This document shows, piece after piece, positions 4,167 through 59,962 of a DNA stretch of 64,000 bases; position 1 is the stretch's first letter; the number at the start of each line of letters is the position of its first letter. The notes under the pieces are model-generated. The model was given only the letters and a program-made list of their open reading frames with translations, ran no database searches and was not told the origin of the DNA. The translations under genes and the position numbers were made by a program. This DNA is from Schizochytrium sp. TIO01 (Eukaryota > Protista > Bigyra: Labyrinthulomycetes): NCBI GenBank assembly GCA_004764695.1, contig SMSO01000031.1, positions 2,208,436 through 2,272,435 of the forward strand, read 5' to 3'.

Positions 4167-4286
<120 letters not shown>

Positions 4287-37358: not shown

Positions 37359-38177
37359 TTATTGCGATTCGGGCTTTGGCGGCCAACAAACCGTCGAACG
37401 AAGTCCTCGCGCAGGTTTCTTGAACGGATCAAACTGAGAAGCTTGAGCTTTTTGACGCTTGCATCGCATTACTGCGTGAAGCACGTGGGAGCTCGCTCTG
37501 AGGGCCCCAAGGAGTCTAGTTCCCATCTCATCGCATCTCATCTCAGCGCGCTACGAGTTCTGATCTCAGCGCAGAAACACCTCTTTGGAGGGGTCTCGAA
37601 AGACACGAGGGTGCTCAAACGAAAGAAGCGCTTTAGAAAGACCTGAACGGATCAAGAAAGACCTACTCAAGTGGAGCGAGCGAACGAAGGAATCAACAAA
37701 TCTTTGAGTCAACGAATCCGTCAACGGGCGAGCTATTCGCCCAGGCTCCTCTTCAAGATCAATCAATCAATCAATCAATCAACCGATCGATAGATCGATT
37801 TGTTCTGCTTTGCTTTGCTTTGCTTTGTTTCAAGGGAAGGACCCGTCAATTTCCTCCTCCTCCTCCTCCTCATGAATGAATCAATCGAAGCGATCTTTGC
37901 CCTCAATCGCTCTCTGTCTCTCTTCATACCCTTCGTTGGAGATCAGATCTTGCAGAAGCACGACGGTGGGACAAGGCGTCACTGCGGGGCGATTCGAGCA
38001 GCGGCGCGCCCAGGCCCTCTCGGCCCGCGACCGCTTCGAGCTGCCTTGGGCTGCTTCGAGCTTCTCGACTCGCAAAGCAGCTGGAGCAAGCGAGGCCGGC
38101 CGTCTGTTCTGTTGTGGTCCGCTTCCTGCGGCATGCGTCCCCGCAGGGCCGAAGAACTTGAAAAGTTCGCCTCATCA

Positions 38178-45590: not shown

Positions 45591-46136
45591 ATTGTGCACT
45601 AAATTAGAACATAAATAAAAAGCAAGTCTTATTTTCTTTAAAATTAAAATGAAAAGGACACTCGGCATAAAGCGTGCCGAAGGAGCGATGCAATGAAGAT
45701 CATCAATGAAGATCATCACAATAACAAGGACACAGACGGTCGTATGAAAGAAAATAAATGCGTAGTCGTTGTTTGAGACACAGAAGGTACCTACTACTGT
45801 TTTCGTAGAAGTGATCTAATGCTGTGGTATCGGCTAGATGGAACTTGGTCGGGGATCCATCTATCTCTCTATCTATTGATCTATATATTTGTCCTCAAGT
45901 CACTTGGTCCAATTCAAGGCAATCGACAGCTTGGGCAGCTCGGCCTCTCTCGCGTCGCTCCTCGCAAAGACGGGCATCAAAAAGCTCTCCAGCTCACGAG
46001 CAAAGCCATCTCTACATGTCGCTGGTCTGTAAAGCAGACAAAGGCGGCGGAGGCCGAGATTATGGAGCTGAGGAACTCAGGTTAGGTTTCTTTCACGCTG
46101 CAAATGGGAACCAACTTGAAGAGGAGACAATCGATA

Positions 46137-46173
46137 ATAGATAGATAAATAGATAGATAGATAGACAGATAGA
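46137..46173. repeat. (GATA)n microsatellite
   Basis: Visible directly. Confidence 0.85.
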
Positions 46174-47305
46174 TGGCGAAGAGGGTGTGTACTACGTACG
46201 CACGTGAGGGTTTGTGAAGAATGGCGCAGTGGGAACGAGGTCGGTGCCGCAGCCTTTGCGAGAGGTGCACCTCTAGCTAGGCAGCAGCTGCAGATGCTCG
46301 CAAGTGGAGGCAGAGGACACCTCCTCCTGAGGAGCAAGACGCATCGCGACGTGACGGTGATCATATTTGTCGCTCATGGCTGGATAGCTTGCTGCAGCTC
46401 CCCGGTGGAAGCAGCAACATCTCGAGTCGTACCGCTACGTCGACTTCGTCTCGCTGGCGTGAAGCTCGAGCATCGCCACTGACGTTGCAGTCATCGGCAC
46501 TACCACCACCGCAGGCAAACTAGTTGCCTGCGGTGGCGCCAAGTCCTCTGGCTGGTGAGCTTTGACGCGAGCCCTTGTGCTTTCAGGAGGAGTCATCAGC
46601 GGCTCGCTCCTTCATCCATCTCATGGACTCCCTCGCACACCGTGCACGGAAAGTACCGCTACAGAAGGACAGTGACCGAGAGGGCTTTATTGAGTACTCG
46701 CAGGCGCTCTTGGAGCACAGCGAGAGCGGCGTGCCGAGTCAATCATCTGCTGCAAACACGCACACACACGCAGACGTGGAGAAAGATACCTTGCTAAGCT
46801 CCCGCTCGCGATTCGTACGAACTTGTTGAAGAACGTGAGTGAGGTAAGCGAGCACACAATCTTCAGAATCTCAGAGAGTCAATGCGGAGGGAGAGATTCG
46901 AAGAAGTAGAGTGCGAAGAGCTCAGGCTCAATTGCTCAGACACACAGCAGACACGCGCGATGACGACGGTGATTACGAGGATGACACGTCTATTGCAGGT
47001 TTTCAAGCGACGATCATCATGTCACCGACCTGATTAGCAATGGACAGTTTTTTTGTGAAGATTTTATGGTATTATTATTCATTCATTCGGTGTTCATTTG
47101 TCCCTCAAGAAAGAAGGAAGGACAGGAACGAACGTTAAAAAGTATTCATTCAGCCTCTGTCTACTATGAAATGAAATTAAATAAAATTATTCACAACAAA
47201 TAAATCAAAGTTCATTTATACTTACATTAAAAGAAGAATGTTCTTCAGAAGAAGTGAAAGTTCCTGCGAAGCAGAGCTGGAAAGAGAAAAGGCGCCGACC
47301 AAAAC

Positions 47306-47340
<35 letters not shown>

Positions 47341-48403
47341 CTCTGCTCAAGAGCAAAAGGCTCTGAGAAAAGAAAGACTGAAAGAAAGTAAGAAAGACAG
47401 GCCTCCTCAAAGAGAGTTCCGCTGCTGTTGGTCTCCCGTCAGTCTTTCACGGGTGTCTGTCTTCTTCGTACCTCCTTCATTGTTTCTCTAGCTAGAGTGT
47501 TCGCCTCTCTCGGTGTGCAGTAAAGTATCTCTTCACTTGCTTGCTTGCTTGCTTGCTTGTCTTTCTCCAAAGCACTCTGTGCGGCTGGAGCTTTGGAAGA
47601 AAGAGAGCTCGATCGATGATGTAGTATGCGAGTAATTCAAGCGATTTATTCATTCATTCATTCATTCATTCATTTTGCGAGATTGAAAGATGATCGAGTG
47701 AGTGCGTGTAAATAAACTCTTTTCGCGAGACCCTCTTTCTCTTCCTTTCACTCCGCCTGCTCAAACTTTGCGCTTCTTCGTTCGTGGGTCTGCTGTCTGT
47801 CTCTCCGTGACGTAAAGAGGAACGAGGCGGAGCAGTCTCGAAGCTGCGAAGAAGCTGCGAAGCGAGGGGAAACCTTCTTCGATCACCAGTCAGTGAATCG
47901 ATTCTTGAGAGCAAGAACTCTCGCTGCTGGAAAGGCGAAGAAGAAGAGGCGACCGGAGAGACAGAAGACAGACAGTGAGTCAGTCATTTATTTATTCGAT
48001 CTGAAAGAGAGAGGAGAGAGTTTGAAGCAACAATGAAGAAAGAAACCACTTCTAGCGAGTCACTTACCCCCTTCGCTACTTCTCTGATAAAAAGAACACT
48101 TGACTGTCCTGTCTGTTTGGAGCTTACGAATCGACCATTTCGTTCATCACCTCTGTGAAAGTCGTCCTCGCTCCTCTCTCTGCAAATGGTTATAAAATAA
48201 TTCAATTCTGTTTTCTCTGAAAAGGCGAATATAAGATCGATTGGTCGCAAGATTGCAAGATAAGTGATGTGCTTTTATAAGTTAAAGAAAGCAAGAACTG
48301 CTGTTTTCTTGTTTGAGACTTTGAAAGGCGACCTAGGCTCGCCCTAAGCGGCGGTAGGGAAATTGGTGGGTTGGAAGAAAGAAAGCCTTCGCCGCGTGGA
48401 GAA

Positions 48404-48438
<35 letters not shown>
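48404..48438. repeat. (TGTC)n microsatellite
   Basis: Visible directly. Confidence 0.9.
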
Positions 48439-50469
48439 ATATCTTTTGAAATGCTTTTCTGTTACTTTTAAGCGGTGCCTGGCTGCTCTTCTTTCCTGCT
48501 CTTTCTTCTTTCCCGGTTTCCGCCTCTCTGGGTGCCTTGGTTTGCGGGTCTCGAGCGCTGCGGAGACGGCGAAAGTTGCGATGATCAGTGGTATTCTTTC
48601 GAGAAATCACCGAATGCAGAAAGAGCTCAAGACATCACGAAAGAAAGCGAAAAAGTAAGCAAGCATTAGTCTGGAACCAACGCAGGAAACTGAGGGTTCC
48701 TGGTTGGTTGGTCCATCATTAGGAAGTGCTAATGTGCGGATAGACGGACTACTATGATGAGGGAGGTGATGATAGTTAATTATTGAATTGTTCATTAGTT
48801 TTAGTTTGTTTATATATTCTCAAATTAAAAAACAATAAAAAATTATTTTATTAGATCTTATTGATGCGAAGTAAAAAAAAAGGACTGCTGCCTAGATACC
48901 TAATACTAGCTACATGAAGAAGACCTTGATGATGCTTTTCTCTTCCTCAAATTCGTGCTGTGTCTGAGTCAGTGGGAAAGAAGAGGAAGGAAAAGGGCAC
49001 AGAGTTCCATAAAGAAATGGCCAACGAAGCAGAGTGAATGAATGAACAAATAAATGAGGGGAAAGAGGCGCACGCAGCGCATAGTTTACGCGTTGGATTC
49101 TTCAAGTTCTTTCGAGCACGATTCGTTCAATCTTCAATCGCCTGAAACCAACCTCTGGAAACTAATCTCTTGAATATATCCTCTTGAAGTTAATCTCTTG
49201 AAATCAACCTCTGCAAATCAATCACTACAATACATGAATACATGAATACAACAATCTCGCGGATCTTCTTACCTTCTGATCAGTGAGTGGCCAAGAGAGA
49301 AGACAGCGAGAGAGGCACAGCACGTGCGTGAAGAATGCATGAATGCCAAGACGATGAAGCGTTCGCAAAGCCGCGCGTGAGCTCCTCTGTCTCGCCACCA
49401 CCGCCACCAACCCGATGCCGTCTCGTGCGTGGGCGTGCGAGGACAGGCCGTGGGACTGACGGGTTTAGAGGAGCTGCAGTTGTGTAGTAATATTGGCGCT
49501 CCGTGCAGAGACTCGGGTTCGCTGGAGACCAAATATATCGAAGATGTATGGGCCAGCGCCTGCCGCATTGCATATATATTACCTACTTCTTCTACCCTGC
49601 TAAAAGTACGTGAATGATCGATCGTGCGCTCAAAGTGCTGGCGTCTCTGCGTGGGGGGGCTCTGGTGAATCGTCGAACGCTGGGGAACGCAAGTAGGTGC
49701 CTGCCTACCAGCCGACCGTTCTCCGGAGGGCGAGGAAGAGGTCTATGTCCTGGTTTCTGACTGGTTTTCGCAAAGCTTTGCTTCGAATGGTGGGTAGTTA
49801 GTTAGTTATTGCAATAGGTACATGAGGTATGTACAGTGTGCGAAGACTCACGGTGAACTTCTGCTGGGCTCGCAGTTATCCTGAGAACCGCTGGCAGTAA
49901 TAGATGCGAGAAGCGAGAGCGATTGCGAGGGCGAGAGCGCTTAGGCCGACTTGAGATCGATTATTGAGTCGCCGTTTGCCTCATCCGTCAGCCTGCTTTT
50001 TAGTTTCCTGGGTGGATGGATGCCAAATCGATGGCGGTTTTGATCCCTCGTGTTTGAAGATCGTTCTGCTTATTTATTTTTCCCATCGATTCGAAGGCCT
50101 CTTTCACTTCTTTCACAACAGACGAAGCGAAGTTAGTTAGTTAGTTAGGTTGGTTTTCACGTTCAAGAGCTCCTCCCGCTCGGTGTGGAATGCCGCCAAA
50201 GAGGCACTTAAGGCCCAGTTTGGCAGGCTCGAGGGCGTCTTTGGTCCCGGTCGGTCTGCTGCCTGCTGGAGAACAGCGCGCGCTCTCGAGCTGCATATTT
50301 GATGCCTCTCATAAGCGTAGTGTAGCAAAGCAGGAGAGAAGGAAGGAATAGATCAATGATTATTTGCATCTATAATGTATTCTATAATGCGGATATCATC
50401 CGCTTCGTAGGTACTACGCTGATGGGAAAAAGAAGACTATGCATGAACTTTTAGGAATACGATTGAGTG

Positions 50470-50677
50470 ATTCAATTCGATTCAATTCAATTCAATTCAA
50501 TTCGATTCAATTCAATTCAATTCAATTCAATTCAATTCAATTCAATTCAATTCAATTCAATTCAATTCAATTCAATTCAATTCAATTCAATTCAATTCAA
50601 TTCAATTCAATTCAATTCAATTCAATTCAATTCAATTCAATTCAATTCAATTCAATTCAATTCAATTCAATTCAATT
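50470..50677. repeat. (ATTCA)n pentanucleotide array, about 41 copies, two ATTCG variants at the 5' end
   Basis: Visible directly. Confidence 0.97.
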
Positions 50678-50843
50678 TGCGAATACACTTTGTGAACGAC
50701 GCAGGATCGTGACTGATGGGTGATGAACTAGCTGCAAGGAAGAGTAAGACCGGCTACTGCTTTGCATAGGGTGGACGATTGAATACGCAGAGGAGTGAAA
50801 AGAAAAGAACGGGAGAAAAGAGAGAAAGAAGAAGTCAGTCGGA

Positions 50844-50846
<3 letters not shown>

Positions 50847-50896
<50 letters not shown>
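50847..50896. repeat. (CT)n microsatellite
   Basis: Visible directly. Confidence 0.95.
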
Positions 50897-50898
<2 letters not shown>

Positions 50899-52733
50899 GC
50901 CTTTCTTTCTCTTCCTCGTTGTTGCTTTTACGCAGTGGTACGCATTTATTTCAAACATAAAAATCAAGTCGTTCGTATTCTTCGCTGTCGTCTTTTATAT
51001 TAAACATTTTTAATGACTCTTTTTCTTTTCTTTTCTTTTCTCTTAAATTGAAGTTACGAGACGGTCACTCCACTCCTTAGGATCACCATGGTGGAATCTG
51101 TTAGTTATCCCCTTTTCATCATTTTTAAAAATAAGGTTTGAAAGTGGCATCTCCTTCGAGGCCTTCATGAAAGAGAACGATTTCCTGCTTGTGACTTTTA
51201 ATTCTTATAATTGAAAGAGCAGGAATAAAAGAGGAAAGGAAAGGAAAAGGCAAATTTAATTTAGTTATTATTGTTGTGACGCATGCACGCATAAAGTGAA
51301 CTGCAGTGAGTGAGTGATATTGTTGTCGCAGTGCAGATGATGATTGATGGATGGATGGATGGATGGTTGGTGATTGCGTGCATGTTTGCATGAATGTATG
51401 TTTGTTTGCACGAATGTCTGCATAACGTGTACGTGTGTGCTCTCGAGGCAGACTCTAGTCTGCAGCATACTAAGGCCTCGCGGCAGCAGAAGACCAGGCT
51501 CAAGGCCGTCTGCAAAGACGCTGTGAAGGCAAAAGCGAAGAAGGCAGACAGACTTCTTTGGCGCTTCCCGTGCGGGTTTCTGGGTCTTCGCCGTATTCTA
51601 TAATTTTAAAATGTTTTTTTAATGTTTTTTTTTTTTTTTTTTTTTTTCTTTCTGGCTTTTGTGTGTTCTTTCGCTCACTCTCTCTTCTTTCACATCTCCG
51701 CTCTTCCTCTCGCTGGCTAGCAGAAAGAAAGACGAGATAGTGAAATAAGAACGAAGAGAGGGAAAGTGAGGGCGCAGAAGAGAGAGTGAGGGGGAGAGAG
51801 GGAGGAGCACACTAGTTAGGGGTCTAGGAGGGGAAGGCTGGGAGGCAGTGGAGGATGTGAGGAGGAGAGCACAAAGTGGAGGCTTTTGGAGGAAGGTAGG
51901 AAGAAAGAGTGCTTGCTTGGTGAGAGGGGGATTGGTAGCTAGCGAGTCTTTCTTTCTTCCGATTATCCATTTATGTTCACAAGAGAGGAAGGAACACAGG
52001 AAAGGAAAGGGAGAGAAAGACACATTGCATGCATGCAAGTATATACATGTATGTATTCTGTATGTATGTATGTGGACGGATGGATGGATATGTTGAGCGA
52101 CTACGGCCGAAAGGCACATTCACACCGGGTTTTCCTCGTGATAATCAGGGTGAGCACATGATGAGGCTGCGTTCCCGTGCGCCTGATCTGACTCTGAGAG
52201 GGACATCCACGAGGTTTTCAGGAGTGATCAATCCCATCAGGAATGCGCTGTTCTTCGGACTTCTTTCTTTCTTTCTTTCTTTCTCTTTTTTTTTTTTTTT
52301 TTTTTTTTAATTTTTAATGTTAACATTTTGTTTTGTTTTGTTTTGTTAGAAGTTGGTCTTGTTAGCTGTTTCGATTTGTTTCGATTTGTTTTTGTTTTAG
52401 GATTTAAAAAAATGAAAATTAAAAAAAAAAAAAAAAAGTGTCTTCATGGTTGTTTTTCCTGCAGGTAGAAAAGGGAAGAAAAAGAATCAGTCGATGAAAG
52501 AAGGAAAGAAAGAAAGAAGAAAAGAAAGAAGGGAAAAGGAGGGAAAAGAAGGAAGAATGGAAAGAAAATAATCACTCAGGCGATGGAAAATCAAAATCAA
52601 ATCAATCAATCGATCGATTGATTGATTGATTGATTGATCGATTGTCAATCAAAAGCCAAATCGCAGCGCACGCGAACGACTGAGGTAGCGCGAAGGGCCG
52701 TGCTGGGATTGAGAAAGCCTGGGTTGAAGCATC

Positions 52734-54653
52734 ATGACGGGGTCTGTGGCCTCACCAGACTCGAGCGAGTCCTCATCGAGACGACCGGGGCGGCGTCTGG
52801 GCCATCCTTCATCGCAGATTCTCAAGCAATGGCTGTTCACGCACAGAGAAAATCCGTACCCTACGCCAGAACAGAAAGAAGAACTGCAGCGTATGACAGG
52901 GCTCACGCGGATGCAGCTTGACGCATGGCTTACGAACGGAAGACAGCGATATGTGGCACCCAAGGAGCGCCGTGGAGCCAACCCGAACTACGCAAGGTAC
53001 TCCAAAGACGTGCGCGAGATCCTGGTGGACTGGCTGGTGGATCACATCAAACATCCTTATCCCAAAAATGAAGAAATGGCAGAGCTCATGGAAAAAACCA
53101 AGCTTACCAAACGCCAAATTCAGAACTGGATGACCAACTCGCGCAAACGCAAACTCATTGAACGCATGGCAGCGGATGGTAAAATTTCGGAAGAAGGGCC
53201 AGTATCAGCCGGACCTGCAGGAGCGCAGAACCCGGCAGCGCCAGGATCTGCCAGTAAGAATAATGTGTCATTCTCGTCGGCATCATCACCGTCATCGATC
53301 TCATCCAACCAAACTGCTATGTTCGGCTACAAGTCCACGCCTTTGGCGGCCGGCAAGCCTTCAGAAAATGGCAGCAGCGGCAACAAGAGCCTTAAAAAGG
53401 ATAACTGCAACAACGATAAACACGAAGAATCAGGGGGTGACAACAAAAGTAGCAAGATACTCCGAAAAGCACTCTCCCTCAGCATTCGCCCTGGAGGTAC
53501 TGATTTCTCAAAGCTCACTGTTGACACCAGTGCGAACGTCCTGACGCCGACCAATATTACCGGCCCCACCTCGCTTGCCTTCTCACCATCCAATGCACAT
53601 GAGGGCTTCTTCAGTGGCTCCATGATGGATATTCCTTCTCCCATGAATAACTTCGGTAACCTCAACAGCATTCGCGGCGCCGGTGGTAGCTTTGAGATGC
53701 CTCCCGAGTCACCACACAGCCAGCATGCGAATGCATTCCTGACCCCTATGCTACGTCAGCAATTCCAACAACAGCAACAGCAGGCTTTCTCTTCTGACAA
53801 TAACCAGCAACAACGACTTGCTAGTCAAATGAACATGAACTCACTAATGTCCCCTCAAGGCTTCTTCCCTAGCCCAAGCCCAAATGCTCTGGGTTTAGCA
53901 GGGTATGCTGGGTTTGGACAGAGTTTGTCTCCTCGAGGCTTCAATGGCGCCTTCTTTGGAGCGGGTCTTCCGGCGTCTCCTTCGCATGCAAGCATCTTGC
54001 AACAGGCCAGCCAGCCTCAACAGCAGCAGCCGCAACACCCTCGCATGCCTTCTTCTGAAATGGAGCAACAACAACAGGCCTTGATGAAGTTTATGCGTCA
54101 ATCGAATATGCTTCCGCCATCCACCCCGATGGTTTTCTCGCCTACGAATGCCACTGCAATCCCCAGTTTGTCTCCGGGAGGTAAATGGAAGCCGAATCAG
54201 CTTCAGCAGCTTCAACAGCTTCAGGCTGTACAGCAGCAACAATCTGAGATGCAACTCCAGCAACAGCTCCAACAACACCATCAGCAGCAGCAACAACAGC
54301 AACAGCAACAGGCGGCATTCTGGCAAAATATGCCGCAATTTTCCAAGCCTCAAGAACCTGAAGAGTTCGCACAGGATAAGCAAGAAGTGAATTCTCCAAA
54401 GCGTGTTCTAGACTCTGCGGGACTGAGTCCGGAAAACACTGCCGAGAATGTACCTCTAAAAAAGCGGAAACGCGCCACTAAGCCAAAACTTAAGCAGCTC
54501 GCGTCTCCTGAAGAAACCCCAATTCTCGCCAGCAATGATGGGGTGGAGAACTTTAAAGTAAGCAAAAAAGTAGGGCCTGCATCCGCAAGCAAGAAGAAAT
54601 CTGCAACATCCTCCCCGAAGGTTCGAAAAGGGGGCGCCAAGGCTAGCGCTTAG
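52734..54653 (+). CDS. Transcription factor with two tandem TALE-class homeodomains and an SP/TP- and Q-rich C-terminus
   Basis: HD1 is ILKQWLFTHRENPYPTPEQKEEL...TGLTRMQLDAWLTNGRQR. HD2 is ILVDWLVDHIKHPYPKNEEMAEL...TKLTKRQIQNWMTNSRKR. Both have the TALE PYP loop and WxxNxR helix 3. PolyQ tracts and an NLS-like PLKKRKR follow. Confidence 0.95.
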   Translation: MTGSVASPDSSESSSRRPGRRLGHPSSQILKQWLFTHRENPYPTPEQKEELQRMTGLTRMQLDAWLTNGRQRYVAPKERRGANPNYARYSKDVREILVDWLVDHIKHPYPKNEEMAELMEKTKLTKRQIQNWMTNSRKRKLIERMAADGKISEEGPVSAGPAGAQNPAAPGSASKNNVSFSSASSPSSISSNQTAMFGYKSTPLAAGKPSENGSSGNKSLKKDNCNNDKHEESGGDNKSSKILRKALSLSIRPGGTDFSKLTVDTSANVLTPTNITGPTSLAFSPSNAHEGFFSGSMMDIPSPMNNFGNLNSIRGAGGSFEMPPESPHSQHANAFLTPMLRQQFQQQQQQAFSSDNNQQQRLASQMNMNSLMSPQGFFPSPSPNALGLAGYAGFGQSLSPRGFNGAFFGAGLPASPSHASILQQASQPQQQQPQHPRMPSSEMEQQQQALMKFMRQSNMLPPSTPMVFSPTNATAIPSLSPGGKWKPNQLQQLQQLQAVQQQQSEMQLQQQLQQHHQQQQQQQQQQAAFWQNMPQFSKPQEPEEFAQDKQEVNSPKRVLDSAGLSPENTAENVPLKKRKRATKPKLKQLASPEETPILASNDGVENFKVSKKVGPASASKKKSATSSPKVRKGGAKASA

Positions 54654-55115: not shown

Positions 55116-57909
55116 TCAATTGTCATCGTCATCATCGTCATCATCAGAATCCATAATCAAATGTGTCGGTACTTTCAATAAGGATGAGGCCAGTATATTA
55201 TGTTTATATGGAGCAACCGGTGCAGTGCTTGACGTGTAGTTATTTCCTCTTTGCTTCTTTGTGCTCAAGGAAGGAGAACTAGACAAACTTGTATAGTCAT
55301 TTTCACTGCCGGTACTCTTAGCTTCGTTTGCAAACATATCAGACTCACTCTTCCGTTTCTTTTTCTTTTTCTTTTCACTCTTCTGTTTCTCCGCAGCGAC
55401 ATTCATGGAGCTACTGCTGATATGATCATCATCACCCTTGTTGAACCTGTCCGCCCGTAACTTCTTCTCCTTCTTTTGCTTTTTTTCTTTAATCCCAGAT
55501 TTTGTGGTGGAGGGTGAGTCATGATTATGAAGACTTGACTCAGAGTGCTTTCTCTTCTTGTCCTTCTTTCTTTTCCCCTCAATAGTATCGTCTTTGCTTA
55601 AGGAGTCTTTGACCGCCTCCTTTTTAAGGATACCTTCACCCAGGTCTTCTGCGGTATCAACAAATACATCTGAATGGTTCTTCTTCTTCTTCTTCTTCTT
55701 CTTTTTCTTGCTTGTAGCCGAATCCAGAGTCCAGCTCACAGGCTCTTCAACAATCTGATCATCTTGTTCCTCAATTGTTAAATTCGTAGCCTTATCATTC
55801 TTGTTCTTGTTCTTCTTGTTCTTCTTCTTCTTTTTATCACTGGTGGCCACCTGTGCAGTCCAGCTTAGAGGCTCTTCAATAATCTCATCTTCTTGATGTT
55901 TAATCTTTTTGTCCGCATCCTTATCTTTCTTTTTCTTCTTCTTTTTGTCACTTGTAACCAAATGCGTGGCCCTGCTTACATGTTCTTCGACGATTGGATC
56001 ATCTTGTTCCTCGGTTTTTATACTAGTAGCCTTATCTTTCTTCTTCTTCTTCTTCTTCTTCTTCGTTTTGTCAATCGTGGTCGAGTCAGCATTCCAGCTT
56101 ACAGATTCTCCAACACCCTGGTAATTTTGACCTTCAATCTCTTTATCCGCGGCCTTCTTTTTCTTCTTCTTTTTCTTCTTGTCACTTGCAGCCAAATCCG
56201 CGGCCCTGCTTGCAGGTTCTTCGACAATTTGATCATCTTGTTCCTCGAGCTTTATACCAGTAGCCTTATCTTTCTTCTTCTTCTTCTTCTTCTTCTTCTT
56301 CGCTTTGTCAATTGTGGTCGAGTCAGCATTCCAGCTTACAGATTCTCCAACACCCTGGTAATTTTCACCCTCGATCTTTTTATCTGCGGCTTTCTTCTTC
56401 TTGTTGTTGTCACTGATGGCCACCTCTGTAGCCCAGCTCACAGGCTCCTCGACAATCTCATCTTGATGTTCGATCATTTTGTCCATGATCTTATCTTTCT
56501 TCTTTTTCTTCCTCTTCTTGTCACTGGTAGCCAAGCTCACAGGCTCGTCGACAATATCATCATCTTGATGCTCGATTCTTTTGTCTGTGACCTTATTTTT
56601 CTTCTTTTTCTTCTTTCCACTCGTGGCCGCCTCGGTAGTCCAGATTATAGGCTCTCCAAAAACCTGGTTATCTTGATTTCCAACCTTCTTGTCCACAGTC
56701 TTATCTTTCTTCTTCTTTATCTTCTTGGTATTTGTGTCTGGGGTCACAGGCAAGCTCACAGATTCCTCATCATGGTGGTCGCTGGCATCTTCAGTGAGAT
56801 GGCTTGTAGCCTCAGATTGCTTCTTCTTCATCTTTTTCTTGTTAATGCTCACAGCTGTACCTAAATGCTTAGTCGATCCTATGGGATCCTCAATGACAGC
56901 TTCTGTTTTGTCTCCAGTATAACTGCTCGCAACATTATCTTCCTTGTCCTTCTTCTTCTTGTCCACCTTGTTCTTCTTCGAGGATACCACATCCCCACTT
57001 GCAGTGATATCCGTGCTCACGTCTTCAGTGTCATTTGAAGGATCTTTGAACGTCTTGTGCTGTCCTGTCTTGATCTTGCGTTGCTCCTTTCCCTCCGTAA
57101 GAATTTCATTCTCGTTCAGCAAAATTGCAGATGATTTGCCAAACTGCATTGTGTCAATTGGTTCAGGTTTATTCTTCGTTTGCTCTGTATCGTGTTCAGG
57201 CTCTGCCTCGTCCATATTAATGATGTCATCTTCAGTCACATGACTTGCTACACCAACACTTTCATTATCGTCTACCATGATAACATCGACTTTATCCGAA
57301 GAAGAAGATGACTTGGTGGGACTTTTATAAACCAGATCAGCTTGAGGTTTGGTTTCTTGATGCTGAGCTTTAGCCATCGATGAATTGTTCGAAGCTTGAG
57401 GCCCAGACTTTGACGCGGTGTAAAAAGTACTGTCTTCAGCGCCACTGTCATCGCTGTCATCAATCAAGAGATTAATAGCTTGGGGAGAGGTCTTCACTTC
57501 AGAAACCTTTGGCAAGGCGCTCTTCTTAGGACTATCGGCAACATTATCAGATTGTGGCACAGTAGCTGGGTATTGAAAGAGATCCATTGGTTCCTCTTCT
57601 TCATCACTATCATCTACAAGAGGAACAACAACTGGAACAGTAATCAATTTCGGGAATTCCACTCGACGGAGCTCCTCTTCAGCCTGCCCATTATCCGCTG
57701 TCGCAGGATCTTCCATTTGTTTTGTTTCCTTCTCTTTCAATGAGCCGCTTCTTTTGTCAGAGCTTTTGTCAAACTTGCGCCTCGAATTAGCCTTTGTAAT
57801 TCGCTTCTTCGTAGTGTTTTTTCTGTTTTTCTTCCTGTTCTCACTGCTGCTGCTGCCGCTGCTGCTGCTACTACTACTACTACCACTGCCGCTACTACTG
57901 CTGCTGCCG

Positions 57910-57943
<34 letters not shown>

Positions 57944-59294
57944 CGCTACTACTGCTGCTGCCGCTACTACTACTGCTGCTGCTACTGCTGCTGCTGCCGC
58001 TACTACTGCTGCTGCCGCTGCTGCTGCTGCTGCTGCTGCTACCACTACTACTACTGCTGCTGCTGCTGCTACTACTGCTGCTGCTGCTGCTGCTACTACT
58101 TCTTTTCCTTCGACGCGAAGATGACTTAGAAGCACCTGCGGAAGCTGCCTTCTTTTTCACTTTCTTGCTTGAACCTACTGTACTTTTTTTTGACTTGGCA
58201 GATCTTTCTGAAGGGGTTCTTTTGGTCTCCAAAAATTTGTAAGAAGAGGACGAATCAGGCTTTGAGATTTTCTCTTCCGAAATATCAGGAGTAATCTGAT
58301 CCAACATATCAGGGCAATACTCTTGAACAAGAGTCTTTATCTTTGTAGCAAATGATTCGTCCTTCAGATTTTTCCTTTTCAAGAGCAGATTGTATTGGCA
58401 TCGCACCAGGTTTGGATGTAAAGGAAGGGGGAAGCTTTGCCACGGAATTTGATCTTCTTCTCTTGCCTTGGAAAAAACAATAGACTTGAGAATAAACTCA
58501 AACTGCTCTGGACCCCAATTTTCGGACTTTAGACCAATCAGCTTAGGGTATAGATAACCTGTGTACCGAGAGCTCAGTTGAAATGGACTTCTCAGTGGCA
58601 TATGCTGACAAAGATCTTTCCATGATATACCGTATAGAGGTGCTTGACCAGACTCAAATTCTTCTGGCTTTGCTTGCCGCACGAGATCAAGCAATAGTCT
58701 ATCCTCTTGAGCAGTGAAAGCTGATGTTTTTCTTTTTCTTTGACGCTCAAGATGGTTCATGTAGCAGTCCCGCGTTGTGTCGGGGTTTTTGCCCAATAAA
58801 GAAGATATCTTTACCCACTGATGTCCATACTCTTCTACGAGTTCCAAAAGTTTTTTAAAGTCCTCTGCGTCCCAAGTACTTCGGCCACCCAATGGATGCA
58901 AAAGGCGTTCTCCATGGTTTGTAATACCTTTGATAGTTCGATTTTGGATGTATTGTGCGCAATAAGCCCAAACACCCCTAAACTTTTTGTTATCTTTATT
59001 GGCTCGCGCAGCATAACGATTTTCATTAGCCAGATTGTCTTTAAACGCCTCAATTGTGGTGCCTTTGGATTCCAAAAACTCCTTCACAAGCTTTACAAGA
59101 TGCTCATCTTCCTCTCTAGACCATGGCCCTTTGGTCTTCGGGGCTGAAGATGACACAGGCAGATGATTCGTTGGTCGTTTCGCAGTACGTGCGAGTGTAT
59201 CTGCATCGATCTTTAGCTTTAAGACATCGAGCTCCTCTTTAGAGAACTCTGGGAACTCCGGGGTTTCCTGTGGAGCATTTGCTTCTTTGCCCAT
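55116..59294 (-). CDS. Myb/SANT-repeat protein (TTF1/Reb1/DMTF1-like) with a poly-Ser tract and Lys-rich tandem repeats, probably nucleolar
   Basis: Myb repeats KGPWSREEDEHLVKLV, TWDAEDFKKLLELVEEYGHQWVKISSLLGKNPDTTRDCY and FTAQEDRLLLDLV...ISWKDLCQHMPLRSPFQLSSRY. First ATG at 59294 (the ORF track starts at an upstream GTG, 59300). Confidence 0.88.
55670..56790 (-). repeat. Coding tandem repeat of ~38-41 aa (poly-K, DK, EEQDDQIVEEPVSW), about 9-10 units, with a near-identical two-unit duplication
   Basis: Visible in the translation and in the DNA (GATTCTCCAACACCCTGGTAATTTT occurs at ~56104 and ~56341). Confidence 0.9.
57843..58098 (-). repeat. (AGC/AGT/GGC)n coding repeat giving an ~85-aa poly-Ser/Gly tract
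   Basis: Visible directly. Confidence 0.95.
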
Positions 59295-59962
59295 TTTCAC
59301 GAGCTGAAGCGTCTGCTTTTGCCTCTGCCACTTGTTTTAACACTCGTGATTGTGAAGTCCCGCGTAAAGCACAAAGCAGGCTGTTTGGACTTTTTGCTCC
59401 GCCAGATCTTGGCCACCTCAACCCAGAGTCCGTCTTCTGACACGGGCCGACCACTCGGCCCAGAGATCCTGGGGCTGCTCTATAACGGCGTCAACAGCTC
59501 ACTTTCTAAGAATGTTTTGATCAATCGCAATTCGAGACTGCAGCCCCAAGTTCTTTGATGTTGTGTTTGTGGCTATTTGCAAACAAATAGAGGGCATAAC
59601 AATAGGTGGCTGGGAATAGCCTATAAGTCGCTAGCGAACTGCTATTGCTTGGGACGGGAGTGACAAATAGCTGTTTATTGGGAGGTACTAGAAGCAACAA
59701 ATAATACCGTAAAGGGTAAATGAACAATAATTGGATATTGCTTTCGCGGAGCTGATCATCTAGAGAGACAATCTGAGAGCGGGAAATCTATGATTGTGAA
59801 ATTCCATTAATACTTTTAGGGGGAGAGTAATAAACATGAAGTATAGACCAAGTGAGTCATCATGTTGATCAAATAGTTTGCATAGAGAGGATTTGGTTGG
59901 AGGTTGTACGGCGGAGAGTAGTGAATGATTACAATGGTATTTAGGCCTGGTTGGACGCAAGG

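What the first reader, a model, noticed from the sequence alone, without database searches (positions are those of the whole stretch)
52776..53165. Two TALE homeodomains fused back-to-back in one polypeptide: a possible single-chain heterodimer
Seen: two complete TALE homeodomains (approx. aa 15-77 and 82-144) joined by only ~4 residues. Both have T50/N51 but differ at position 54 (Q vs K). Known: TALE proteins usually carry one HD and act as heterodimers (PBX-MEIS/PREP in animals, KNOX-BELL in plants, GSM1-GSP1 in Chlamydomonas, ORO-SAM in brown algae), often controlling life-cycle transitions. Seen: there is no room for an N-terminal MEINOX/PBC-type dimerisation domain. Inference: the fusion may hard-wire composite-site recognition without a partner, making this a candidate life-cycle regulator.
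Basis: partly seen in the sequence, partly recalled or inferred. Interest (0 to 1): 0.8.

Follow-up and report, generated by a model that had tools for sequence, protein, structure and literature searches.

The report
Thraustochytrid double-TALE factor with locked linker
This marine-protist gene encodes a protein with two TALE homeodomains back to back, joined by a short linker whose length and sequence are kept across a family of relatives, so it likely reads one two-part DNA site on its own; multi-homeodomain TALE proteins and this idea are already in print, and a life-cycle role is untested.

Summary
ORF 52734-54653 (+, 639 aa) carries two TALE homeodomains (aa 15-77, 82-144), 4 residues apart, T50/N51 in both, Q54 versus K54. 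A transcript-derived protein matches it at 638 of 639 residues. The host is a thraustochytrid, likely Aurantiochytrium.

The architecture is not new. Arun et al. 2019 list stramenopile TALE proteins with several homeodomains, one back to back, and propose that they act like heterodimers.

New here: the gene belongs to a family (16 distinct proteins; named members in Hondaea and Mucochytrium) with W48-W48 spacing fixed at 67-69 residues. The junction is as conserved as the recognition helices. The two helices are stably different, and HD1's N-terminal arm is missing or unconserved. Two control double-TALE groups show no such fixed spacing.

Neither domain has the I50 of ORO or MEIS, and trees weakly favour an old internal duplication over a fusion of two partner classes.

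Best reading (0.6): a DUX4-like single-chain reader of an asymmetric composite site. DNA binding is untested, and nothing here supports a life-cycle role.

The parts
52734..54653 (+). Uninterrupted ORF, 639 aa plus stop: double-TALE homeodomain transcription factor
   Evidence: transcript-derived match at 638 of 639 residues
52776..52964 (+). TALE homeodomain 1 (aa 15-77): D46 A47 W48 T50 N51 R53 Q54 R55; N-terminal arm unconserved in the family
52950..53000 (+). Conserved junction (aa 73-89): end of HD1 helix 3, the 4-residue linker and the HD2 N-terminal arm (motif N-P-N-Y-x-R-Y)
   Evidence: modal conservation 0.79 overall and 0.87 for the HD2 arm, against 0.82-0.85 for the recognition helices; conserved through synonymous changes
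52977..53165 (+). TALE homeodomain 2 (aa 82-144): Y5 R7, Q46 N47 W48 T50 N51 R53 K54 R55
53751..54338 (+). Glutamine-rich low-complexity region (28% Q), inferred effector or activation region
   Evidence: function inferred
54459..54473 (+). Basic patch KKRKR, candidate nuclear localisation signal
   Evidence: function inferred

Best explanation
The gene encodes a protein with two intact TALE homeodomains and a conserved short junction, which likely binds, as a monomer, one asymmetric two-part DNA site of fixed spacing, much as DUX4 does. Shown: two domains, a fixed spacing, an invariant junction peptide and stably different recognition helices across the family. Inferred: each helix 3 enters the major groove of a neighbouring TGA-type half-site (N51, R53, R55 kept; HD1 Q/H54 and HD2 K54 would give different flanking preferences). 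Inferred: the 17-residue junction serves both as HD2's N-terminal arm and as the spacer, and makes up for the arm HD1 lacks. Inferred: the Q-rich tail recruits transcription machinery. The pair likely arose by an old internal duplication followed by specialisation, not by fusing a KNOX/ORO-type gene to a BELL/SAM-type gene. The regulated process is unknown.
For: W48-W48 spacing is 67-69 in 14 of 14 family proteins (sd 0.9). Two unrelated double-TALE groups of similar divergence give 80-106 (n=17, sd 6.8) and 74-144 (n=7, sd 20). HD2-arm modal conservation is 0.87, against 0.50 and 0.71 in those controls. Y5 and R7 of HD2 are present in 16 of 16. Against locus L001, 13 of 17 junction residues are identical, 7 of them through synonymous codon changes, so selection is on the peptide. 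N51, R53 and R55 are kept in 16 of 16 HD1, and in 15, 14 and 15 of 16 HD2. Position 54 is Q/H in 16 of 16 HD1 and K in 14 of 16 HD2; position 46 is D/E in 16 of 16 HD1 and Q/R in 16 of 16 HD2. 7 of 16 members start at HD1 position 6-7. The top six Foldseek PDB rows are DUX4 HD1-HD2 complexes, but at E 1e-3 to 8e-3 and TM 0.33. In DUX4 the linker contacts the minor groove and constrains the two domains (10.1101/2023.01.21.524976, passages). Separate-chain fold of HD1 with HD2: weak support, score 0.43 against best control 0.00, runs agree in at least 80% of contacts, partner pLDDT at least 69. The mark was reached by 51 of 78 solved complexes and 2 of 108 mismatched pairs, but at 0.60 or under by only 5 of those 78 and by all 4 mismatches that passed; the chains are halves of one protein and may pass by likeness to solved complexes.
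Against: No DNA-binding data exist. AlphaFold2 gives no fixed relative orientation without DNA (pTM 0.52 and 0.49; junction pLDDT 65). The Foldseek match to DUX4 has rmsd 12-14 A, so the geometry was not reproduced. In a three-homeodomain Phytophthora protein only the N-terminal domain gave a binding result when the domains were tested separately (PMC11267843 passage). HD1 lacks N47 in 15 of 16 members and lacks a conserved arm. The family was partly collected by the junction motif, which inflates its conservation. This is offset only in part by the 14 HD1 rows, which lack that motif, forming their own clade (SH-aLRT 98). Predicted starts of the unnamed members may be wrong.
Confidence: 0.6

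Rival explanations
1. Only one domain (probably HD2) reads DNA. The other is an auxiliary or protein-binding module, and the junction is conserved simply as HD2's own arm.
For: HD1 has no conserved arm (modal 0.33 among residues), an acidic residue at 46 in 16 of 16 and N47 in only 1 of 16. Precedent of one active domain among three in PITG_19220.
Against: HD1 keeps N51, R53 and R55 in 16 of 16, and its helix 3 is as conserved as that of HD2 (0.82 against 0.85). HD2 is the more degenerate domain in some members. The fixed spacing is not explained.
Confidence: 0.2
2. A true fusion of two partner TALE classes (ORO/KNOX-like plus SAM/BELL-like) that hard-wires a life-cycle switch.
For: HD1 and HD2 are only 41% identical over the core, no more than either is to unrelated TALE domains (medians 41% and 39%). 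The quick tree separated them. HD2's arm ends in R7-Y8, like the K7-Y8 of SAM in Arun's table (by eye). P. infestans homeodomain genes are highly expressed in mating.
Against: Neither domain has I50 or M54 as ORO does. Holding HD1 and HD2 together gave a tree 50 log-likelihood units better than the quick free tree, p-AU 0.86 (the constrained search ran longer). The careful tree joins them with two long-branch outsiders at 88/56. No stage-specific expression evidence.
Confidence: 0.12
3. Beads on a string: two independent domains that only add avidity, with no fixed site geometry, like many repeat-expanded multi-TALE proteins.
For: Multi-domain TALE proteins are common among the hits: 144 of 187 non-family proteins have two or more domains, and 66 have a pair at spacing 72 or less (enriched by the double-domain query). 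Low pTM.
Against: Spacing sd 0.9 and an invariant junction, unlike the control groups. The two domains are long-diverged, not recent repeats.
Confidence: 0.08

Closest known systems
Multi-homeodomain stramenopile TALE proteins of Arun et al. 2019 (PMC6368402, Table S6): Aureococcus '17', T. pseudonana 22757, P. infestans PITG_05545, P. sojae 484958
   Same: Two or three TALE domains in one chain. Aureococcus 17 is back to back, about 5 residues between the listed domains. The same heterodimer-mimic idea is stated.
   Different: The Aureococcus domains are near-identical recent copies. The Phytophthora second domain is far away and has lost N51. No labyrinthulomycete name occurs in the table. 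The fixed spacing and invariant junction were not seen described.
DUX4 and DUX double-homeodomain proteins (PRD-like class)
   Same: Two tandem homeodomains with different half-site preferences, a linker that fixes the geometry, and a C-terminal effector region. Top fold rows.
   Different: Non-TALE domains and independent origin. The linker is longer (about 15 residues, recalled) against 4 here, so the head-to-head geometry of DUX4 need not carry over.
TALE heterodimers ORO-SAM, KNOX-BELL, GSM1-GSP1, PBX-MEIS/PREP
   Same: Two different TALE domains acting on one regulatory site (inferred here).
   Different: Here one chain, no MEINOX/PBC/ORO/SAM dimerisation domain, and no I50 domain. There is no need for two cell types to bring partners together, which removes the logic that makes those dimers life-cycle switches.
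Spiralian TALE-IV and TALE-XIX double-homeobox genes (PMC6118893)
   Same: TALE proteins with two homeodomains.
   Different: Animal lineage, independent origin; not compared by sequence here.

Membership tests
TALE superclass homeodomain | [quoted passage not shown] | tested here: met
   Both domains align without gaps over 63 columns, carry PYP, and match Homeobox_KN twice; definition from PMC4901127
TALE superclass homeodomain | Three-helix fold with W48, N51, R53 | tested here: met
   MEIS chain matches at rmsd 0.9 A over 51 residues
Typical homeodomain arm | Arg at position 5 (minor-groove contact) | tested here: not met
   G5 in HD1, Y5 in HD2; HD2 Y5 in 16 of 16 and HD1 R5 in 1 of 16; norm
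KNOX/MEIS/ORO-type partner | I50 in helix 3 and an upstream KNOX/MEIS/ORO domain | tested here: not met
   I50 in 0 of 16 HD1 and 0 of 16 HD2; 14 residues before HD1; no such Pfam hit. ORO-specific domains were not profiled.
PBC/BELL/SAM-type partner | PBC/PBL, POX or SAM domain outside the homeodomain | tested here: not met
   No room upstream and no Pfam hit. The SAM-specific domain has no profile here, so only position and Pfam were tested.
Fusion of two partner classes | HD1 and HD2 fall in different ancient classes | tested here: inconclusive
   One-clade hypothesis not rejected, p-AU 0.86; joined at 88/56 in the careful tree; 65 columns only; outgroups mostly unnamed, with no verified ORO or SAM
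DUX-like single-chain composite-site binder (works like) | Both domains bind adjacent half-sites at fixed spacing | not testable with these tools
   Indirect only:
DUX family (membership) | PRD-like 60-residue homeodomains, eutherian mammals | tested here: not met
   Domains are TALE; 23% identity to DUX4
Life-cycle regulator | Stage-specific expression and mutant phenotype | not testable with these tools
   No homeobox term in the 4 supplementary files held for the zoospore proteome paper

The most novel reading that the evidence does not exclude
An ancient labyrinthulomycete family in which two TALE domains have merged into one DNA-reading unit: HD1 gave up its N-terminal arm, and a Tyr/Arg junction packs between the domains, possibly in HD1's TALE pocket like a covalent Hox hexapeptide. 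It would be a natural single-chain equivalent of a TALE heterodimer that controls the zoospore, amoeboid or vegetative switch in a transformable protist.
Probability: 0.15. Interest if true: 0.72.

Novelty: new variant of a known kind. Interest (0 to 1): 0.4.

Why it matters
Arun et al. 2019 proposed that multi-homeodomain stramenopile TALE proteins bind like heterodimers; I found no test of that in my searches. This family looks a better test case than those they listed: both domains are intact, they are long-diverged, and their spacing is locked. It sits in a thraustochytrid group that is cultured and used in biotechnology. A 130-residue fragment would suffice for SELEX and a co-crystal. A positive result would show convergence on the DUX design from TALE parts. 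It would not by itself say anything about life cycles.

Tried and rejected
No whole genome is held, so paralogues and single-domain TALE partners in the same organism could not be counted.

Run search: 24 holders listed, no RNA holder listed on record; no reads were laid, so introns in the 5' region and the transcript start are unchecked.

ESM Atlas: best score 0.86, Homeobox_KN clusters, no new information.

The metagenome scan gave 27 loci, of which only L001 is a full-length family member. Its neighbours (FAD-binding protein, G-alpha) differ from the window's downstream neighbours (Myb, RGS), so no synteny was seen.

Recent duplication rejected: HD1 against HD2 averages 39% (27-49%, n=14), while HD1-HD1 averages 55% and HD2-HD2 52%.

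The quick tree that separated HD1 from HD2 was not the best tree and is not relied on.

The extra two residues in the HD2 loop of some members first suggested a link to the stramenopile long-loop class; the careful tree did not group them.

Autoregulation through the TGAT array upstream was considered and set aside as microsatellite background.

No earlier findings of this scan by sequence or by words.

No model with DNA could be run.

Full report
Observation. The stretch lies at the 5' end of an uninterrupted ORF, 52734-54653 (+), 639 aa, with an in-frame stop 6 bases upstream of the ATG. Pfam Homeobox_KN matches twice (E 5.3e-32). Anchored on W48, the domains are aa 15-77 and 82-144, 4 residues apart, with T50/N51 in both and Q54 versus K54. 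AlphaFold2 models two confident three-helix bundles with an uncertain junction (pLDDT 65) and pTM 0.52 and 0.49. The rest of the protein is low-complexity, with a region of 28% Q and a KKRKR patch.

Organism and expression. An MMETSP transcript-derived protein has the same start and length and differs at one residue (P0005). The closest named relative is Hondaea fermentalgiana 'Homeobox protein 4' (84% over the domains). The transcriptome record's taxon number resolves to a fungus and looks like a transposition of the number for Aurantiochytrium limacinum. That MMETSP0958 is this species is recalled. So: a thraustochytrid, likely A. limacinum.

Family. Searches gave 210 stored proteins, of which 23 carry the junction motif between two domains. 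After dropping 7 redundant records (P0002, P0005, P0006, P0007, P0014, P0158, P0025), 16 remain; some analyses used 14 (also without P0167, P0168) or 12. Named members are Hondaea and Mucochytrium quahogii. Only the best 150 of 5101 hits were visible.

What is conserved. W48-W48 spacing is 67-69 in 14 of 14 (sd 0.9). Two other double-TALE groups among the hits, of similar HD1 divergence (0.63 and 0.61 against 0.59), give 80-106 (n=17) and 74-144 (n=7). The HD2 arm is as conserved as the recognition helices (0.87 against 0.82-0.85) and more than helices 1 and 2 (0.55-0.60). Against locus L001, 13 of 17 junction residues are identical, 7 through synonymous changes. HD1 keeps N51, R53 and R55 in 16 of 16; HD2 in 15, 14 and 15 of 16. 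The helices differ stably: position 46 is D/E against Q/R (16 of 16 each), and position 54 is Q/H (16 of 16) against K (14 of 16). HD2 has Y5 and R7 in 16 of 16. HD1's arm is unconserved, and 7 of 16 members begin at position 6-7; two of these are transcript-derived and labelled complete. Caveat: membership leaned on the junction motif, which inflates its conservation. The HD1 rows alone, which lack it, still formed a 14-of-14 clade, with one long-branch outsider inside it.

Origin. HD1 and HD2 of the window protein share 41% over the core, the same as the medians to 118 unrelated TALE domains (41% and 39%), so this is no recent repeat. The quick tree separated them, but a search holding all 28 family rows together found a tree 50 log-likelihood units better, p-AU 0.86 (that search ran longer). 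A careful tree on 54 rows (16 family rows and 38 hand-picked outgroups) joined them, with two long-branch outsiders, at 88/56. Neither domain has the I50 or M54 seen in ORO. An old internal duplication is weakly favoured and a fusion is not excluded. With 65 columns and mostly unnamed outgroups the question is not settled.

Mechanism. Fixed spacing, an invariant junction and two intact but different recognition helices are what a single-chain composite-site binder should show. DUX4 is the worked precedent: its two domains prefer different half-sites, and its linker contacts the minor groove and constrains them (10.1101/2023.01.21.524976, passages). DUX4 structures are the top Foldseek rows, but weakly (E at least 1e-3, TM 0.33, rmsd 12-14 A). 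I infer that the junction is both HD2's arm and the spacer, and makes up for HD1's missing arm. A TGA-type half-site is inferred from TALE precedent (recalled) and from four of five P. infestans homeodomain motifs containing TCA (PMC11267843, passage). Folding HD1 with HD2 as separate chains gave weak support only: 0.43 against best control 0.00, at least 80% contact agreement, partner pLDDT at least 69. At such a score only 5 of 78 solved complexes and all 4 passing mismatches fell, and halves of one chain may pass by likeness. Against this reading: no binding data, low pTM, and the P. infestans three-domain protein in which only one domain bound. In PBC-Hox structures a motif upstream of the Hox domain docks on the TALE domain (PMC4901127 section 28). 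A covalent version of this is the bold case, not shown.

Prior knowledge. Arun et al. [quoted passage not shown] Their table has a back-to-back, near-identical pair in Aureococcus, a three-domain Thalassiosira protein, and Phytophthora proteins with a distant second domain. No labyrinthulomycete name occurs in it. Spiralian double-TALE genes are described (PMC6118893, passages). Joo et al. 2018 (PMC6219170, passages) had no hit for tandem, double, fused or stramenopile. Among my own hits, 144 of 187 non-family proteins have two or more domains and 66 have a close pair (enriched by the query). Searches (listings and abstract starts) showed no paper on this family; subscription journals are not covered. 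The zoospore proteome paper (PMC12221091; listing, and a term search of 4 supplementary files) had no homeobox term.

Verdict. Tandem TALE domains and the heterodimer-mimic idea are known. The locked-junction family with specialised helices appears undescribed and is a good test case for that idea. The life-cycle claim is analogy only, and a fused protein loses the two-partner logic that makes ORO-SAM or GSM1-GSP1 work as switches. New variant of a known kind; interest 0.4.

Noticed in passing
P0112, P0144 (proteins, named): Giant-virus proteins (Hyperionvirus, Harvfovirus; 167-172 aa) with two TALE domains of apparently different types: the first has T50, the second has M54 with I50 (P0112) or T50 (P0144), ORO-like in helix 3. 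They may be a better candidate for a real two-class fusion than the window's gene. One literature search listed nothing on them.
   Followed up: partly
P0008, P0010, P0157, P0159, P0019 (C-termini): 5 of 16 family members end in a short A-A-x-x-[LM]-x-x-L motif, resembling a Sin3-type corepressor motif (recalled). The window protein lacks it and has a Q-rich tail instead, so the family may hold both repressors and activators.
   Followed up: partly
P0032, P0043, P0166-P0169: A subfamily with K50 in HD1 and R47 in HD2, a changed linker start but the same N-Y-x-R-Y arm; it likely reads a different site.
   Followed up: partly
window 52619-52638: Five TGAT copies about 100 bases upstream of the ATG resemble PBX-type sites, but similar arrays lie at 4220-4283 and 37758-37781 in a microsatellite-rich window.
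   Followed up: partly
window 55116-59336 (-): The convergent neighbour is a Myb-repeat protein (about 1390 aa) with a long Ser tract and repeated Lys-rich blocks.
   Followed up: no
window 45800-52700: No ORF of 200 aa or more lies between 45815 and the gene; the long, repeat-rich upstream region would fit a gene under complex regulation, or small spliced genes.
   Followed up: no
PMC6368402 Table S6: Saprolegnia SDRG_04312 and SDRG_04313, TALE genes of two different helix-3 types, have consecutive locus tags, which suggests an adjacent partner pair.
   Followed up: no
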